A stretch of DNA of 64,000 nt from a virus, in IMG/VR virus record IMGVR_UViG_3300045988_144737; one strand, given 5' to 3'. The notes under the pieces were generated by a model. It saw only the letters and a program-made list of their open reading frames with translations, was not told where the DNA came from and did not search any database. The translations under genes were made by a program, and so were the position numbers. This document shows positions 25,912 to 30,997 of this stretch, piece after piece. Position 1 is the first letter of the stretch. Each line of letters begins with the position of its first letter.

Positions 25912-26581
25912 TCCAAACTTCTACAACCTTTCTACCCCAATCACTATTATCCCAACGACAACCAATTGTATAGGGTGTGTTTAATCCATATTTATCAACA
26001 TATTTTATTAATAATTTGAATAACCCATGAAACCCATCTTCTTGAGAAGAATAACTATGATAATTATTTTGACCACCAATGCCCCCTGGGTTGTTTTTAG
26101 TCAACCATACCGAACTAGTTCCATTGCTTGTTTCTAGCCTCCATACAGAGTAAGCAAACCCAATATCGATTTGTGGATAATTTTGAGCAACGCTTTTAAA
26201 CAATTGATTATCAATTTTATTTGGGTCAGTTAATTGAGCATTAATATTTGTATGAATATCAACACTATGGTTATACATAGCCAACCTAGCTTGTCTCTCT
26301 TGTTCTGCTTTTTCTAACTTCAATCTCTCTTCTTCTTGTTTTCTTTGCTCTTCTCTTGCCCTAGCTTGAGCAAGTGAATATTGCCTAATTCTTTCATCTT
26401 CTTGTTGTTTTTCCAATTGTTTCTTTTTAACATTGTCATCCAATGCTTTCATTTGCCTTTTTGCCATATTGGTTACTTTTTCTTTGTGCTTAGTATTTAG
26501 TTTTACAATTGGGTGAAACACCGAACTAATAGACAACATCAAGGCTGTTGTAACGCCAATTGCTTGTTTCTTTGTTTTCAT
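25895..26581 (-). CDS. membrane-anchored glucosaminidase-domain protein
   Basis: N-terminal hydrophobic anchor and an E/Q/R-rich coiled coil. C-terminal WRLETSNGTS...NNPGGIGG...SQEDGF resembles the LytD/FlgJ glucosaminidase domain. Confidence 0.55.
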   Translation of the reverse strand: MKTKKQAIGVTTALMLSISSVFHPIVKLNTKHKEKVTNMAKRQMKALDDNVKKKQLEKQQEDERIRQYSLAQARAREEQRKQEEERLKLEKAEQERQARLAMYNHSVDIHTNINAQLTDPNKIDNQLFKSVAQNYPQIDIGFAYSVWRLETSNGTSSVWLTKNNPGGIGGQNNYHSYSSQEDGFHGLFKLLIKYVDKYGLNTPYTIGCRWDNSDWGRKVVEVWSEYID

Positions 26582-26631
26582 AAAATCCTCCTATTTGAGA
26601 CAAATAACCTAATTAATTATAGACAAATAGC

Positions 26632-27588
26632 CTACAATTGATTTAATAATCCATTAGCACTCATTCTATTAACCATTTTATTTTTTGTAACATGAGAGTA
26701 AATATTTAATGTGGTACTAATATCACTATGCCCCAATTCTTCTTGTAACTCTTTAACATTTGCTCCATTTTCAATTTGAATACTTGCAAAACTATGTCTT
26801 AAACAATGAAAATGAAAGTCTTTGTAATCTTCAAATCCGTTTTTTCTTAATACCGATTTAAAATTGTTATTAATATTTCTTTTATCTATTTTATTACCAT
26901 GTTTAGTAATAAATAAAATATCATTATTTGCTTGCGGTCTATCATTAACAATATAATCTTTTATGTAGTTTAAAGTAGGTTTGGAAAATCCTAAAAATCT
27001 TTCCTTGTTTCCCTTACCGATAACTCTAACGAATCCACCATCTTCGCTTTCTTGAATATCTTTAATACAAATATTTGTAACTTCTCCATAACGCATACCA
27101 GTTTCTAAGATTAAACTGTACAAAGCCTTATCTCTTGGTTTTTTAAGACCACGAATTAATTTTAAAGCATCTTGTGTATTTAGAAATTTTGTTTCTTTCT
27201 TATTTCTAATTTTGTATTTTAACAAATATGGACTTTTGTCAATCAATCCTCTTTGATAAAAATAATTATATAGTTGTTTGATAGGCATTGTATAATTAAA
27301 TTGAGTATTAACAGACAATCCTTTTTTTACCAAAAAATAATTATATTCTTCAATATCAAAAGATGTAATTTTTAACAAATCATCCAATGTTTTAATTTCT
27401 TGGAAATCAAACCACATTTCTAAATTCTTTTTGTAAATGTTATATGTATTATCTTTGCCATCATTTTTAATTAATCCATTTAAAAATATTTCTACTTCTC
27501 TTATCATTTTCGCACGACCTCTTTCTATTTGTTTTCTTAATACAACTACATTATATAATTTATTTTTCCACAAGTCAATACAATTCAA
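26632..27588 (-). CDS. int: tyrosine recombinase/integrase (XerC/D-like); start possibly at 27507
   Basis: C-terminal catalytic region HCLRHSFAS...LGHSDISTTLNIYSHV (R..H-x-x-R...H...Y); RYGE region upstream. Confidence 0.85.
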   Translation of the reverse strand: MNCIDLWKNKLYNVVVLRKQIERGRAKMIREVEIFLNGLIKNDGKDNTYNIYKKNLEMWFDFQEIKTLDDLLKITSFDIEEYNYFLVKKGLSVNTQFNYTMPIKQLYNYFYQRGLIDKSPYLLKYKIRNKKETKFLNTQDALKLIRGLKKPRDKALYSLILETGMRYGEVTNICIKDIQESEDGGFVRVIGKGNKERFLGFSKPTLNYIKDYIVNDRPQANNDILFITKHGNKIDKRNINNNFKSVLRKNGFEDYKDFHFHCLRHSFASIQIENGANVKELQEELGHSDISTTLNIYSHVTKNKMVNRMSANGLLNQL

Positions 27589-27598
27589 TCACAAATTT

Positions 27599-27952
27599 TT
27601 AATAAATTCTTAATGCACATTTTAAAGCATTTTCTAAATCTTCCATTTCATCGTAATACAATTTGTCTAAGGTTTTTACAACTTGTTTTTTTGCAATAGT
27701 TGTAATTTGCTCACACAAACAAATACTTTCTTTGTAATTTAGATTTAATATTGTATGAGTTGGCAAGCGCTTTTTCTTTTTTGAAGTTAATGGTACAACA
27801 ATTAGAATATCGCTATATTGATTACCAACATTGTTACTAACAACAACGCATGGTCTTACACCGCTTTGAATATTATTTTCTTTTTGTTCTCCCAAATCAA
27901 CTAATACCACATCTCCTCTTTTAAAATTTTTATCTTGTTCATTTTTATCCAT
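27599..27952 (-). CDS. mazF: MazF/PemK (EndoA-like) endoribonuclease toxin
   Basis: Colinear with B. subtilis EndoA: KRGDVVLVDL, SGVRPCVVVSNNVGNQYS, IVVPLTS, LPTHT, CEQITTIAK, DEMEDLENALKCAL. SD GGAGGAAG upstream. Confidence 0.85.
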   Translation of the reverse strand: MDKNEQDKNFKRGDVVLVDLGEQKENNIQSGVRPCVVVSNNVGNQYSDILIVVPLTSKKKKRLPTHTILNLNYKESICLCEQITTIAKKQVVKTLDKLYYDEMEDLENALKCALRIY

Positions 27953-27980
27953 ATGTACTTCCTCCGTATTTGTAATTTAA

Positions 27981-28101
27981 TAAAATTATTTTTATTGATA
28001 AAACTCCGTTTTGAAAAAATATTTTTATTATGCAATCTAGGATTTTGAAAAATAAAAAATTATTTTTATTAACAAAACTATAAAATAAAAAAATATTTTT
28101 A
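27981..28101. repeat. four AAAAWTATTTTTA units (two about 75-nt repeats) in the mazF leader
   Basis: Copies at 27982, 28015, 28056 and 28089. The 24-nt cores AAAATTATTTTTATTGATAAAACT and AAAATTATTTTTATTAACAAAACT match 22/24. Confidence 0.6.
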
Positions 28102-28180
28102 GCGTTATTATATAGATACTATATATATTTTATTATAGTTTTATTGATATCTTTTATATCAAACCTTGATTACGATACTA

Positions 28181-28208
28181 ATTATATCATATATTTAACT
28201 AATGTCAA
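28181..28208 (-). promoter_or_regulatory. strong extended -10 promoter TTGACA-16-(TGA)TATAAT driving the mazF-int leftward operon
   Basis: Minus-strand TTGACA (28203-28208) and TATAAT (28181-28186) with TG at -15/-14. Confidence 0.65.
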
Positions 28209-28959
28209 TATTTAATTTCAATTATTTATTTTTGAACGTTTAATATAGTATAAGCATAATACTACCAAACAAATTATTTAGATTTAATCAATATAATTCT
28301 ATTTTTAAAACAACACAACCATTAATACAATTTATTAATACTTTGCAACATTCCATTATCGACCATACGAGAGCAATAATGAATGATTATATATAGTTAT
28401 CATAAAACAATAAAACAACTCTACACAATGTCATATGGTTTATATACACCCATATATAGATTTGATGAATTATATTAACTTTGTAGACCATAAACACATT
28501 CTATTAAATCTATTAATTATAAACATAATAACAAATACAACTAGCTAATACTTACAACCATCTTATTTACAATCAACATTCCTTACGCCAAACACAAGCG
28601 AAGTCACCACATTGTATAGCAATGAAATGGTTACAAAAGCAATTATGAAACCCTTATATTAATAACTTTTAAGAACCAAAAGCGACGATAAATGTATCAA
28701 TTGTAAAATTGTTTGCTTTTAAAACCCACATTTTACATACCACGGTTTAAAACTTTGCGACATTATACATTGTACGCTTTACTCGAATTGCGACATTGCA
28801 AACTTTAAGCCCTTTATTTTTTGTAGAAAGGATAAACCCCCTGCTTTACTGGATTTCCGACATTTCGAATTTTCCTATTTATTCCCTATAACCCAACTAT
28901 ATCAAGAAAAAACAGATCCGTCAAGAGATTAACTAAGAAAATTTTTTAAAAAATAATTG

Positions 28960-28988
28960 TTGACTTATTTATTGAACACTAGTATAAT
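28960..28988 (+). promoter_or_regulatory. consensus sigma-A promoter TTGACT-17-TATAAT (first rightward early promoter)
   Basis: TTGACT 28960-28965 and TATAAT 28983-28988. Confidence 0.75.
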
Positions 28989-29014
28989 ATTAGATGAAAG
29001 GAGGCATAATAATA

Positions 29015-29383
29015 ATGAAACTAAAGGTAAAAGAATTAAACAACAATAATATTATTACATTAGATAACGTTAAAAGTGCAATTGCAATTAAGAAAAGTAA
29101 TGATATTCTTGTAACTACAAAAGACAACAAAATAAATACATTAAATAATTGCTCTATATGCAATAATGTATTAGTAGATATTTTAGAAAATGATTTAAGA
29201 AATAAAAATATTAATATCTACGATGATTTGACAAACGAGTTTCTTATCTATGGCAAAGGTGAAAAACTCTTTCAATTGTTAAACTTTAACTATATGACAT
29301 ACCACGAGGTAATAGCAATTGCGCAAAATAAAGATAGTTATGATATATTTGTAACTAATCTTAAAACAAAAGAAATTAAATAA
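29015..29383 (+). CDS. early protein, paralogue family A (122 aa)
   Basis: AAAGGAGG precedes the ATG at 29015; the tracked ATG at 28994 sits at the predicted TSS. The N-terminus MKLKVKELNN matches the paralogue at 32603. Confidence 0.7.
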   Translation: MKLKVKELNNNNIITLDNVKSAIAIKKSNDILVTTKDNKINTLNNCSICNNVLVDILENDLRNKNINIYDDLTNEFLIYGKGEKLFQLLNFNYMTYHEVIAIAQNKDSYDIFVTNLKTKEIK

Positions 29384-29402
29384 AAAAAAGAAAATATAAA
29401 TA

Positions 29403-29449
29403 ATTCTTTACATTATTAATAAAGTAGTATATAATTAATAGTGTAAAGA
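29403..29449 (+). promoter_or_regulatory. early promoter TTTACA-17-TATAAT bracketed by inverted repeat TTCTTTACA/TGTAAAGAA
   Basis: -35 at 29406-29411 and -10 at 29429-29434; IR arms at 29403-29411 and 29441-29449. Confidence 0.7.
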
Positions 29450-29474
29450 ATTACTAAGAAAGGAATGACATTAA

Positions 29475-29879
29475 ATGAAATTTGTTTATAGTGATGGCGG
29501 TAGAAATAGATATTTTAAAGCTAACAACGTTAATGATTGCGTAATTAGAGCTATATGCAATGCTACACAAAAAGATTATTTAGAAGTTTACAATGATTTG
29601 AAAAAATTAAATGGTGGTAAATCTTGCAGAAATGGAACACCGTTAAAAGTTGCTAAAAAATACATTAATAGTTTAAAGGGGTGGGAATGGGTTCCAACAA
29701 TGCTAGTCGGACAAGGTTGTAAAGTCCACTTAAAAAAAGATGAACTACCAAAAGGGATTCTTATTATTTCCTTAAGCAAGCATTATACTTGTGTAAAAAA
29801 TGGGGTAATATATGATACATATGATTGCTCGCGCAATGAAACGAGGTGTGTATATGGTTTTTGGATTAAGAAAAATTAA
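29475..29879 (+). CDS. hypothetical early protein (134 aa; possible Cys-His-Asp peptidase-like arrangement)
   Basis: SD AAGAAAGGAA upstream. NDCVIRAI ... KHYTCV ... YDTYD occur in papain-like order, but no family could be confirmed. Confidence 0.5.
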   Translation: MKFVYSDGGRNRYFKANNVNDCVIRAICNATQKDYLEVYNDLKKLNGGKSCRNGTPLKVAKKYINSLKGWEWVPTMLVGQGCKVHLKKDELPKGILIISLSKHYTCVKNGVIYDTYDCSRNETRCVYGFWIKKN

Positions 29880-30061
29880 GTTTGCTTATTATTTAAATAT
29901 TTTTAAAATTAGGTATATTAATAGGAATTGTATATAAATTATGATTAGTATTTTTAACACCTATAAACACCAATTTAAAGGTGGTGAAGATAATTGGGCG
30001 CGTTAATTGTATTACTTATTATTTGGATATTTTTAAAATTAGATAAATTAGTTTAAAATAA

Positions 30062-30442: not shown

Positions 30443-30997
30443 ATGAACGCAAAAGAAAGCATATTAAAATTATACATAGAAAACAATTTAAGTGACGAAG
30501 ATTTATTAAATTTATTTAAGGCATATGATGGATATTCTGGTAATTATGAATTTTGTAATACATGGGATTTAGAAGAATTATGCTTTTGTTATAATGCTTA
30601 TGACGTAGCAAAAATGATTATTAACGGAAATGTAAATAGTGTCGATGATGATGTTAGGTTCGATGATGATGGAAATTTAGAAAGCATAGACAATTATGAT
30701 TTATACGATGAAATGTATGATTACTTAGGTAGTTTATGCGACGATTTATTGTCTAGTTGGTATAATATTGATAGTGAAATTGAATTTATAGATTATGATT
30801 TAAGAGCATTATTAGAGCATTTAGATTGTCGAGACGATGAATTATATATTAGATTAAATGATAACAACATTACAAAAGATGTTTTAATTAGTGATATCGA
30901 TTTCGATAAAATTGATGATGTTTGCGATGTAAATTTAATTTGTGAAGAAGTAGATAATGATAATTTTGTTTTTATTGAGTTAGCTTGTAACTTTTAA
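30443..30997 (+). CDS. highly acidic early protein (184 aa), candidate DNA mimic
   Basis: SD AAGGAG upstream; long D/E-rich runs (SVDDDVRFDDDGNLESIDNYDLYDEMYDY...). Confidence 0.6.
   Translation: MNAKESILKLYIENNLSDEDLLNLFKAYDGYSGNYEFCNTWDLEELCFCYNAYDVAKMIINGNVNSVDDDVRFDDDGNLESIDNYDLYDEMYDYLGSLCDDLLSSWYNIDSEIEFIDYDLRALLEHLDCRDDELYIRLNDNNITKDVLISDIDFDKIDDVCDVNLICEEVDNDNFVFIELACNF

What the first reader, a model, noticed from the sequence alone, without database searches (positions are those of the whole stretch)
27599..28208. Orphan phage MazF/EndoA-type toxin preceded by a transcribed repeat leader instead of an antitoxin gene, and coupled to the integrase
Seen:
- The 117-aa product is colinear with B. 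subtilis EndoA/MazF (see feature).
- A near-consensus extended -10 promoter (TTGACA-16-TGATATAAT, 28181-28208, minus strand) lies about 220 nt upstream.
- The leader between them has no ATG. Its only frame is a TTG-initiated, SD-less, K/N-rich frame of about 45 codons that runs out of frame into mazF.
- The leader carries four AAAAWTATTTTTA units (27982, 28015, 28056, 28089; spacing 33/41/33 nt). These form two units of about 75 nt whose 24-nt cores match 22/24.
- The integrase gene starts 10 nt after the toxin stop.

Established: mazF/pemK genes are normally preceded by a small protein antitoxin gene. Type III (ToxIN-like) loci instead use promoter, tandem RNA repeats, then toxin, and ToxN has a Kid/MazF-like fold.

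Inference: a phage-borne unpartnered MazF, acting in host shut-off, exclusion, or a lysogeny-linked addiction module. Its neutralisation may be RNA-based, operator-based, or supplied in trans. The repeats are few, AT-rich and imperfect, so the type III analogy is speculative.
Basis: partly seen in the sequence, partly recalled or inferred. Interest (0 to 1): 0.65.

Follow-up and report, generated by a model that had tools for sequence, protein, structure and literature searches.

The report
Solitary phage MazF with repeat leader
A roughly 100-kb phage of the gut bacterium Thomasclavelia ramosa carries an intact MazF-type RNA-cutting toxin gene with no recognisable antitoxin gene. The gene sits behind a consensus promoter and a conserved AT-rich duplicated leader, but lone phage MazF genes are already catalogued and the leader does not behave like an RNA antitoxin.

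Summary
The sequence features are mostly real. The ORF at 27599-27952(-) is a bona fide MazF/PemK endoribonuclease under purifying selection. It is preceded by a perfect extended -10 promoter and a 222-nt, 84% A+T leader with no conserved ORF. The leader holds a genuine 74-nt duplication that gives four AT-palindromic boxes, and these are invariant across 13 related phage genomes.

One claim is wrong. The integrase starts at ATG 27507, 91 nt after the toxin stop, with its own RBS and promoter-like site, not 10 nt after it.

The window is a Thomasclavelia phage of the TR-TP1/TR-TP2 type, where this gene is already annotated "MazF-like growth inhibitor" (PHROG 1936). Ninety-six GenBank phage records carry relatives, including a member of the Herelleviridae, and the neighbourhoods I inspected showed no recognisable MazE.

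The type III (ToxIN-like) analogy fails every testable criterion.

My best reading is a solitary MazF that is the first gene of the leftward early arm. It would be controlled through its promoter and constrained leader, with any neutralisation supplied in trans.

New here: close phage MazF relatives repeatedly sit just upstream of integrase-fold genes, including relatives of the SPbeta repressor MrpR/SroF.

I score interest as modest.

The parts
28181..28208 (-). Consensus sigma-A-type promoter with extended -10 (TTGACA, 16-nt spacer, TGATATAAT). Presumed mazF promoter, with the transcription start near 28174.
   Evidence: 12/12 hexamer match plus TG. Hexamers invariant in 13 genomes of two lineages.
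27953..28174 (-). 5' leader of 222 nt, 84% A+T, with no ATG or GTG and no conserved ORF. It is 80% identical between lineages whose synonymous sites are near saturation.
   Evidence: composition, no ATG/GTG. (leader ORF not conserved). (80% identity against 35-55% in the neutral-looking parts of the intergenic region; mazF dS 0.97).
28056..28101 (-). Unit 1 of the 74-nt duplication. It carries box A1 (AAAAATATTTTT, 28089-28100) and box B1 (28055-28067).
   Evidence: 37/46 identity with unit 2; 0 of 500 shuffles reach it. Segments 28103-28084 and 28063-28044 are 100% conserved against L004.
27982..28027 (-). Unit 2 of the duplication. It carries box A2 (AAAAATATTTTT, 28015-28026) and box B2 (27982-27993).
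27961..27965 (-). Shine-Dalgarno GGAGG, 8 nt upstream of the mazF ATG.
   Evidence: Read directly from the sequence.
27599..27952 (-). mazF: a 117-aa MazF/PemK-family endoribonuclease toxin of a phage clade (phrog_1936).
   Evidence: dN/dS 0.11 against the L004 lineage.
27550..27578 (-). Promoter-like TTGACT-17-TATAAT in the 91-nt mazF-int spacer.
   Evidence: 11/12 match. The -35 hexamer is conserved and the -10 is 5/6 in L004.
26632..27507 (-). Tyrosine recombinase ('integrase'), 291 aa, with the catalytic R..K..HxxR..H..Y residues present. The true start is ATG 27507.
   Evidence: PF00589 at 1.2e-35 and phrog_1 at 4.6e-49. Annotated start in TR-TP1/TR-TP2. Sequence read. The 5' extension is not conserved.
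28896..28924 (-). Second leftward promoter-like site (TTGACG-17-TGATATAGT) at the far end of the 1-kb intergenic region. It could also read towards mazF.
   Evidence: It is 95-100% conserved against L004.
28755..28864 (-). Three conserved AATGTCGSAA boxes (28855-28864, 28788-28797, 28755-28764) in a conserved non-coding block downstream of that promoter. Their link to mazF is uncertain.
   Evidence: No RNA-structure support (0 compensatory pairs; z +0.66).

Best explanation
SHOWN

An intact MazF-family endoribonuclease gene of a phage-specific clade is the first gene of the leftward early/replication arm of a roughly 100-kb Thomasclavelia phage. It sits behind a consensus host-type promoter, a 222-nt AU-rich leader and a strong ribosome-binding site. 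No antitoxin gene lies next to it.

INFERRED

- It is a solitary toxin made from the start of infection by host RNA polymerase. It cuts RNA as part of host take-over and/or control of the phage's own developmental programme.
- Its dose is set by expression control rather than by a cis antitoxin.
- The four conserved AT-palindromic boxes (AAAAATATTTTT type), produced by an old 74-nt duplication and unique to this leader, are cis-regulatory sites. They are most likely binding sites on the DNA for a dimeric protein acting as a roadblock or operator downstream of the promoter. Alternatively they are AU-rich determinants of mRNA decay or translation.
- Any protein inhibitor would act in trans. Candidates are an unrecognised small or acidic early phage protein, analogous to phi3T AimX/YosL, or the host MazE.
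- The adjacent integrase is co-oriented and may be co-transcribed, but it has its own start signals.
For: - Toxin identity, conserved catalytic-site equivalents and purifying selection.
- Position as first gene of an all-minus-strand arm. That arm runs on through genes annotated in TR-TP1 as anti-repressor, Sak4-like annealing protein, helicase, primase, polymerase and ribonucleotide reductase. GC skew flips sign at about 28.9 kb.
- Promoter perfect and conserved.
- No cis antitoxin.
- Boxes are real, clustered and invariant while the spacers between them diverge.
- Lone MazF genes with their own TTGACA-type promoter are common in phages. More than 552 viral contigs and 96 GenBank phage records carry relatives, including the Herelleviridae phage Lpa804. 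In those I inspected, 18 upstream small ORFs hit no antitoxin family and share no common family.
- Precedent for phage inhibitors of MazF acting in trans (AimX, YosL): PMC10769878.
Against: - No expression, toxicity or cleavage data exist, and the promoter assignment is by consensus only.
- If the enzyme cut UACAU, which I recall as the EndoA / S. aureus MazF site, the phage shows no avoidance of it (73 observed against 73.8 expected, z -0.13). The int gene has three such sites. Self-protection is therefore unexplained.
- The boxes lie 75-195 nt downstream of the promoter rather than over it, which is atypical for operators.
- No candidate binding protein is identified.
- A natural variant (L111, plus 4 similar places) carries an IS1595-like insertion between the promoter and the boxes. 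An uninterrupted leader is therefore dispensable, at least in some genomes.
- Absence of a recognisable antitoxin is negative evidence. It is limited to Pfam/PHROG sensitivity, to 64 kb of about 100 kb read directly, and to the TR-TP1 annotation for the rest.
Confidence: 0.5

Rival explanations
1. Conventional protein neutralisation supplied in trans. MazF would be held inactive for part of the cycle by an unrecognised phage-encoded inhibitor (a small or acidic early protein) or by the host's chromosomal MazE. The locus would then be a split type II system rather than a truly unpartnered toxin.
For: - phi3T encodes AimX and YosL, which bind and inactivate MazF (PMC10769878).
- The window encodes several very acidic proteins in the divergent early arm, for example 30443-30997(+), 184 aa with 48 D/E against 10 K/R.
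- In the Lactobacillus phage Lpa804 group an unannotated, highly acidic 62-aa ORF lies 64 nt upstream of mazF.
Against: - No sequence-detectable MazE/AbrB/RHH among the listed matches.
- The upstream ORFs of other phage mazF loci have no homologue in the window.
- Identity to EndoA-type MazF is only about 35%, so cross-neutralisation by a host MazE is uncertain.
- This rival is compatible with, and partly contained in, the best explanation.
Confidence: 0.25
2. The AT-box region is a DNA site for the neighbouring tyrosine recombinase. It could be a core-type recombination site (attP or a dimer-resolution site) or an autoregulatory site. The repeats would then have nothing to do with controlling the toxin.
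For: - The boxes are unique to this locus and lie next to the recombinase gene.
- A 22-9-22 imperfect inverted repeat is centred near 28040 (I4).
- In the L004 lineage, box A1 sits inside a 10-bp perfect inverted repeat, AACGCTAAAA...TTTTAGCGTT.
- Integrase-fold proteins can act as DNA-binding regulators (MrpR/SroF; PMC10516654).
Against: - Inverted-repeat content of the leader is at chance level.
- The L004 palindrome is broken in the window lineage.
- No integrated copy or junction was found that would define a crossover site.
- The 291-aa enzyme is too short for a lambda-Int-type arm-binding N-terminal domain, and Pfam reports only SAM-like core-binding domains plus the catalytic domain. 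Four dispersed 'arm-like' sites are therefore unexpected.
Confidence: 0.1
3. A lysogeny- or episome-linked module. mazF would be expressed from the prophage or plasmid-prophage as an addiction or abortive-infection/exclusion function, together with the recombinase.
For: - mazF-recombinase synteny is conserved in this phage group.
- In other phages mazF lies directly upstream of MrpR/SroF-like integrase-fold genes.
- MazF activity promotes lysogeny in phi3T (PMC10769878; bioRxiv 10.1101/2025.11.27.690993).
- The TR-TP1 authors class it as temperate (PMC12694917).
Against: - That classification rests on the integrase gene or on similarity criteria.
- No CI-type repressor is annotated.
- The phage is seen only as contigs of about 87-101 kb, never inside larger contigs.
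- The toxin query found no close relative in representative genomes and there was no plasmid match.
- Addiction needs an unstable antidote, and none is found.
- MazF relatives also occur in a Herelleviridae phage, a family I understand to be strictly virulent.
Confidence: 0.12
4. A type III-like (ToxIN-style) system. The transcribed leader repeats would be processed into RNA units that bind and neutralise MazF.
For: - The promoter - repeats - toxin order is present, with a real duplication in the leader.
Against: - The toxin is in PF02452, with no ToxN-type family hit.
- There are only two units, 80% alike over 46 of 74 nt, and TRF does not call them.
- No terminator-like site in the region.
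- Folds are weak (z -2.06 and -2.20) and differ between lineages.
- Conservation is confined to AT boxes, with divergent spacers.
- No Rfam match at E up to 1.
- The same box arrangement was found in no other viral lineage.
Confidence: 0.04

Closest known systems
B. subtilis EndoA (NdoA/MazF)-EndoAI and S. aureus MazEF type II toxin-antitoxin systems
   Same: Same toxin family and length. The protein is colinear with EndoA at 35% identity and hits solved S. aureus and B. subtilis MazF structures at 1e-17 to 1e-13. The residues aligned with the EndoA catalytic Arg and Thr are conserved.
   Different: There is no upstream overlapping antitoxin gene. Instead there is a 222-nt non-coding leader. 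The gene belongs to a phage-only clade and is the first gene of a phage early arm.
PHROG 1936 'MazF-like growth inhibitor' (lone MazF-like genes of phages, e.g. Lactobacillus phages Lpa804 and ATCC 8014-B2, Thomasclavelia phages TR-TP1/TR-TP2)
   Same: Direct member: 4e-28 to the profile and 99% identical to the TR-TP1/TR-TP2 genes annotated with that name. As in the relatives I inspected, no recognisable MazE lies next to it.
   Different: The duplicated AT-box leader is specific to this phage group. As far as the held literature shows, none of these phage genes has been characterised experimentally.
ToxIN / type III toxin-antitoxin systems
   Same: Superficial gene order: promoter, repeated non-coding sequence, toxin.
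   Different: Different toxin family. Two imperfect 74-nt units rather than an array of near-identical short repeats. No terminator, no supported RNA fold, and conservation restricted to AT boxes.
phi3T/SPbeta arbitrium circuit (host MazF, phage inhibitors AimX/YosL, integrase-fold repressor SroF = MrpR = YopR)
   Same: It links MazF activity with an integrase-fold protein in phage developmental control. Close relatives of this MazF lie directly upstream of MrpR_N_CB-type genes (L008, L011, L012 weakly, L080).
   Different: In phi3T the MazF is the host's and the repressor is catalytically dead. Here MazF is phage-encoded and the neighbour keeps all catalytic residues of a real recombinase. 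No arbitrium genes were seen.

Membership tests
MazF/PemK toxin family (PF02452) | Sequence match over the whole domain above the curated threshold | tested here: met
   85.8 bits against a 23.1 cut-off, profile positions 1-106 of 109. PDB MazF/EndoA hits at 1e-17 to 1e-13.
MazF/PemK toxin family (PF02452) | Catalytic Arg and Thr (EndoA R25 and T48 equivalents; numbering from memory) | tested here: met
   R33 is invariant and T56 nearly invariant in a 20-sequence alignment that includes EndoA.
MazF/PemK toxin family (PF02452) | Sequence-specific endoribonuclease activity and growth inhibition | not testable with these tools
   Needs expression and cleavage assays. dN/dS of 0.11 shows only that the protein is under selection.
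Type II MazEF/PemIK toxin-antitoxin operon | Adjacent co-transcribed protein antitoxin gene (MazE/AbrB, RHH or PemI type) | tested here: not met
   No conserved ORF in the 1-kb upstream region. The downstream gene is a recombinase 91 nt away. No antitoxin family among the listed Pfam matches for 50 small window ORFs, and none annotated in TR-TP1.
Type II MazEF/PemIK toxin-antitoxin operon | Operator palindromes overlapping the promoter, bound by the antitoxin or the complex | tested here: inconclusive
   Conserved palindromic boxes exist but lie about 75-195 nt downstream of the -10 element. No binding protein is known.
Type III toxin-antitoxin (ToxIN, CptIN, TenpIN) | Toxin of a ToxN/AbiQ-, CptN- or TenpN-type family | tested here: not met
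   Apart from PemK_toxin, the only Pfam match at E up to 0.1 is a sub-threshold 2CompART hit (E 0.096, below its cut-off). No PADLOC model is hit.
Type III toxin-antitoxin (ToxIN, CptIN, TenpIN) | Tandem array of near-identical short repeats immediately upstream of the toxin | tested here: not met
   Two units, 37/46 identical within a 74-nt period. TRF reports no such array.
Type III toxin-antitoxin (ToxIN, CptIN, TenpIN) | Transcription terminator between the repeats and the toxin gene | tested here: not met
   No terminator-like sites in 26500-29500.
Type III toxin-antitoxin (ToxIN, CptIN, TenpIN) | Repeat RNA folds, is cut to unit length by the toxin and inhibits it | not testable with these tools
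   Only weak, non-conserved folds are predicted (z about -2).
PHROG 1936 'MazF-like growth inhibitor' | Profile match, encoded in a phage genome | tested here: met
   E 4.2e-28. The window is 97% identical to Thomasclavelia phages TR-TP1/TR-TP2 over this region.
mazF + MrpR/SroF-like integrase-fold repressor pair (seen here in other phages) | Downstream neighbour is an MrpR_N_CB-type protein lacking the recombinase catalytic residues | tested here: not met
   The window's neighbour is PF00589 with R, K, HxxR, H and Y all present. It shares only the gene order.

The most novel reading that the evidence does not exclude
Phage MazF and the integrase-fold gene that follows it could form a self-contained developmental switch. 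This would be a cis-encoded version of the phi3T circuit, in which host MazF degrades most phage mRNAs while sparing the operon that includes the integrase-fold repressor SroF. In this Thomasclavelia phage the four invariant AT-palindromic boxes in the leader would be the gate that sets the MazF dose. No antitoxin would be required, because RNA cleavage is itself the regulatory output.
Probability: 0.12. Interest if true: 0.7.

Novelty: new member of a known kind. Interest (0 to 1): 0.35.

Why it matters
Lone MazF-like genes are frequent in phages of Firmicutes, including gut and dairy phages, yet none I could find has been studied. How a phage tolerates or exploits an RNase toxin without a partner is an open but tractable question.

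This phage is a convenient model. Both the phage (TR-TP1/TR-TP2) and its host (T. ramosa YY17) are in culture. The gene has a clean consensus promoter. The conserved, duplicated leader gives defined mutational targets.

The recurrent placement of phage mazF just upstream of integrase-fold genes connects to recent work showing that MazF activity and the SroF/MrpR repressor govern lysis versus lysogeny in Bacillus phages. It suggests the link may be wider than arbitrium phages.

Tried and rejected
- **Rfam scan** of 26500-30000 at E up to 1: nothing.
- **RNA folding of the leader.** In the window and in L004 the z-scores are about -2, the structures differ, and ensemble frequency is low. No shared RNA element emerged.
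- **Upstream conserved block (28715-28892) as an sRNA.** No compensatory pairs were found and the fold z-score is +0.66. Rejected as a structured RNA.
- **Self-immunity by avoiding the MazF site.** UACAU is not depleted against synonymous-codon shuffles (z -0.13). The strongly depleted 5-mers are GATC- or AGCT-containing words and TTTTT, so no candidate strand-specific cleavage site stood out.
- **Prophage junctions to locate attP.** The genome-contig scan gave only two distant MazFs. All contigs carrying the exact integrase are phage-sized. There was no plasmid match.
- **The same box arrangement in other viruses.** The pattern scan returned the same phage, an unrelated tandem hairpin array (L106) and one hit in a 1.47-Mb contig that I did not inspect.
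- **A common antitoxin family among small ORFs upstream of other phage mazF genes.** None turned up in Pfam or PADLOC. The ORFs form only small local clusters and have no homologue in the window.
- **Whether the Pfam-less 300-aa proteins downstream of mazF (L048/L057 type) have an integrase fold.** hhalign against integrases found nothing, the PDB profile search found nothing, and the single-sequence AlphaFold model was unusable (pLDDT 37). Left undetermined for that subgroup. The pooled profile of nine such proteins does hit XerA at 1e-5, and the L028/L032 pair aligns weakly with integrases (E 0.007).
Full report
**What the window is.** The region around the finding is 97% identical to Thomasclavelia phages TR-TP1 and TR-TP2. 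These are 90-101 kb phages isolated on T. ramosa YY17. It is 99-100% identical to metagenomic contigs of about 100 kb.
- Every large ORF from 11 to 27952 is on the minus strand, and every one from 28994 onward is on the plus strand.
- GC skew changes sign at about 28.9 kb.
- The finding therefore sits at the head of the leftward arm. In TR-TP1 that arm continues through genes annotated as anti-repressor, annealing protein, helicase, primase, polymerases and ribonucleotide reductase.
- In both GenBank records the ORF is already annotated "MazF-like growth inhibitor", and the next gene is a 291-aa integrase.

**Checking the observation: the toxin and promoter.**
- The toxin call is solid. It matches PF02452 at 3e-24 over the whole domain and phrog_1936 at 4e-28.
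- Solved relatives are S. aureus MazF and B. subtilis EndoA. The residues aligned with the EndoA catalytic Arg and Thr are conserved.
- dN/dS is 0.11 against a lineage whose synonymous sites are nearly saturated.
- The promoter TTGACA-16-TGATATAAT (28208-28181) is a 12/12 match with TG. It is invariant in 13 genomes of two lineages.

**Checking the observation: the leader.**
- The 222-nt leader has no ATG or GTG. Its only long frame is not conserved.
- They derive from a real duplication: a 46-nt match at a 74-nt offset, 37/46 identical, reached by none of 500 dinucleotide shuffles.
- The palindromic motif is essentially confined to this spot in the 64 kb.

**Checking the observation: the integrase start.** This statement is wrong.
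- The integrase begins at ATG 27507, behind AGAAAGAGG.
- A TTGACT-17-TATAAT site lies in the 91-nt spacer.
- The TTG extension region carries 2-nt indels in the sister lineage, where the ORF starts at the ATG.

**Is the toxin really unpartnered?**
- Nothing coding is conserved in the 1-kb upstream region.
- Fifty small ORFs of the window gave no MazE/AbrB, RHH or PemI match among the listed families.
- None of the 119 TR-TP1 genes is annotated as an antitoxin.
- This is not peculiar to this phage. A profile scan found more than 552 viral contigs with MazF relatives, and 96 GenBank phage records carry one, including the Herelleviridae phage Lpa804.
- Eighteen small ORFs upstream of such genes hit no antitoxin family. 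They share no common family and have no homologue in the window.
- Many of these genes have their own TTGACA-type promoter directly upstream.
- The orphan status is therefore supported, but it is a known, catalogued situation rather than a discovery.

**The leader is under constraint.**
- Between the window lineage and the 84%-identity lineage (L004-L007), the intergenic region alternates. Some segments are at 35-55% identity, which looks neutral. Others are at 80-100%.
- The leader is 80% identical overall.
- Three blocks carrying the boxes are invariant in all 13 genomes, while the spacers between them diverge:
  - TAACGCTAAAAATATTTTTTTATTTTA
  - AAAATAATTTTTTATTTTTCAAAAT
  - AATAAAAATATTTTTTCAAAA
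- This pattern points to short recognition sites, not to unit-length functional RNAs.

**The leader does not fit a type III system.**
- Predicted RNA folds are weak (z about -2) and differ between lineages.
- Tandem Repeats Finder does not see an array.
- There is no terminator-like site and no Rfam hit.
- The toxin is not of a ToxN type.
- The ToxIN-like reading therefore fails each criterion that can be tested.
- What binds the boxes is unknown. They could be protein sites on DNA downstream of the promoter, AU-rich RNA determinants, or sites for the neighbouring recombinase. The last is weakened because inverted-repeat content is at chance level and a palindrome seen in one lineage is broken in the other.
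- In a natural variant an IS1595-like element sits between the promoter and the boxes, with a duplicated AACGCTAAAA. The uninterrupted leader is therefore not indispensable.

**Lifestyle.**
- The exact integrase protein occurs in 57 collection blocks, always on contigs of at most about 100 kb.
- The toxin query found no close relative in 185,579 representative genomes, and no plasmid matches.
- The published "temperate" label rests on the integrase gene or on similarity criteria.
- An addiction or lysogeny role is thus unsupported by occurrence data, though not excluded.

**A pattern worth noting.** Among the closest phage relatives of this MazF, the gene immediately downstream on the same strand is repeatedly a protein of about 300 aa of the tyrosine-recombinase fold.
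- A true integrase follows here, and in L013/L027 after an SLT gene.
- MrpR_N_CB-type proteins follow in L008, L011, L012 (weakly) and L080.
- A pooled profile of nine such proteins hits XerA at 1e-5.
- The L048/L057 subgroup could not be confirmed.
- MrpR (= YopR = SroF) is the integrase-fold master repressor of SPbeta-like phages (PMC10516654).
- In phi3T, host MazF activity favours lysogeny and is blocked by the phage proteins AimX and YosL (PMC10769878). It is reported to spare the operon that contains sroF (bioRxiv 10.1101/2025.11.27.690993).
- A phage-encoded MazF next to an integrase-fold gene may be a cis version of that logic. I give this low probability for the present phage, whose neighbour is a catalytically complete recombinase and whose int gene contains UACAU sites.

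**Verdict.**
The RNA-antitoxin analogy is not supported, and the integrase coupling was overstated.
- The object is a new member of a known, annotated kind. It carries an unexplained, conserved cis element that would be easy to test, because phage and host are in culture.
- I commit to the following reading with moderate confidence: a solitary early-expressed MazF whose dose is set by its promoter and leader, with any inhibitor supplied in trans.

Noticed in passing
whole window (GATC at 28915 and 31321 only): Extreme avoidance of GATC: 2 sites in 64 kb against about 169 expected from base composition. All GATC-containing 5-mers, and AGCT-containing ones, are strongly depleted against synonymous-codon shuffles. 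This suggests selection by restriction systems that recognise these sites.
   Followed up: partly
window 28740-28930 (-): A conserved non-coding block behind a conserved TTGACG-17-TGATATAGT promoter-like site carries three AATGTCGSAA(N)TAAAGC-type boxes at 67- and 33-nt spacing. It is 80-100% identical to the sister lineage, while flanking intergenic DNA is 35-55% identical. There is no RNA-structure or covariation support, so DNA sites (origin, packaging or regulator) seem more likely.
   Followed up: partly
window 28380-28457 (-): A second conserved non-coding island, GTTGTTTTATNGTTTTATGATAACTATATATAATCATTCA, reaches 100% identity between lineages. It sits in the middle of the otherwise divergent 1-kb intergenic region. 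Function unknown.
   Followed up: no
L111:1473-2651 (insertion point equals window ~28100): In one ~100-kb phage contig, with 4 similar places not shown, an IS1595-like element is inserted in the mazF leader between the promoter and the AT boxes. It encodes a 337-aa transposase (PF12762 at 6e-6, just below the curated cut-off), has inverted ends, and is flanked by a duplicated AACGCTAAAA. This is a natural variant that separates the toxin gene from its consensus promoter.
   Followed up: partly
L008, L011, L012, L025, L028, L032-38, L048-73, L080 (gene after mazF): In many unrelated phage contigs mazF is followed within about 35-100 nt by a 300-325-aa ORF. Several of these ORFs hit MrpR_N_CB (the SPbeta master-repressor family). 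They share a degenerate 'LLWyG..x.EI..L...D' box in which the catalytic Arg of recombinases is replaced.
   Followed up: partly
window ~28900-29000: GC skew switches sign, giving the cumulative minimum, exactly between the divergent promoter-like sites at 28924->28896 (-) and 28960-28988 (+). The whole 1-kb intergenic region keeps the strand composition of the leftward arm. This fits leftward transcription through it and/or a replication origin.
   Followed up: no
window 28994-29383 (+): The first rightward ORF probably starts at ATG 29015, preceded by AAAGGAGG, not at 28994. ATG 28994 lies only 5 nt after the -10 element of the TTGACT-17-TATAAT site at 28960-28988.
   Followed up: no
window 30443-30997 (+): A very acidic early protein (184 aa, 48 D/E against 10 K/R, pI about 4.05) lies in the divergent early arm with no family match. 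It might be a nucleic-acid mimic, that is an anti-restriction protein or conceivably a MazF inhibitor.
   Followed up: no
TR-TP1 record (L102/L103), corresponding to window genes at roughly 5-13 kb: Several essential genes appear split or flanked by HNH homing-endonuclease genes in the related phage annotation: DNA polymerase, NrdD and the tape-measure protein. The genome looks rich in homing elements.
   Followed up: no
L115:1754-1933 (Lactobacillus phage Lpa804): An unannotated 62-aa, highly acidic, coiled-coil-like ORF lies 64 nt upstream of the Lpa804 mazF-like gene and is conserved in related Lactobacillus phages. It is a candidate unconventional antitoxin in that group, with no counterpart in the window.
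   Followed up: partly
L106:850-1280: An unrelated 120-kb viral contig has a tandem array of roughly 74-88-nt units, each containing the hairpin ACACGAAAA-TAAAAATA-TTTTTTCGTGT. It was picked up only because the box motif forms its loop.
   Followed up: no
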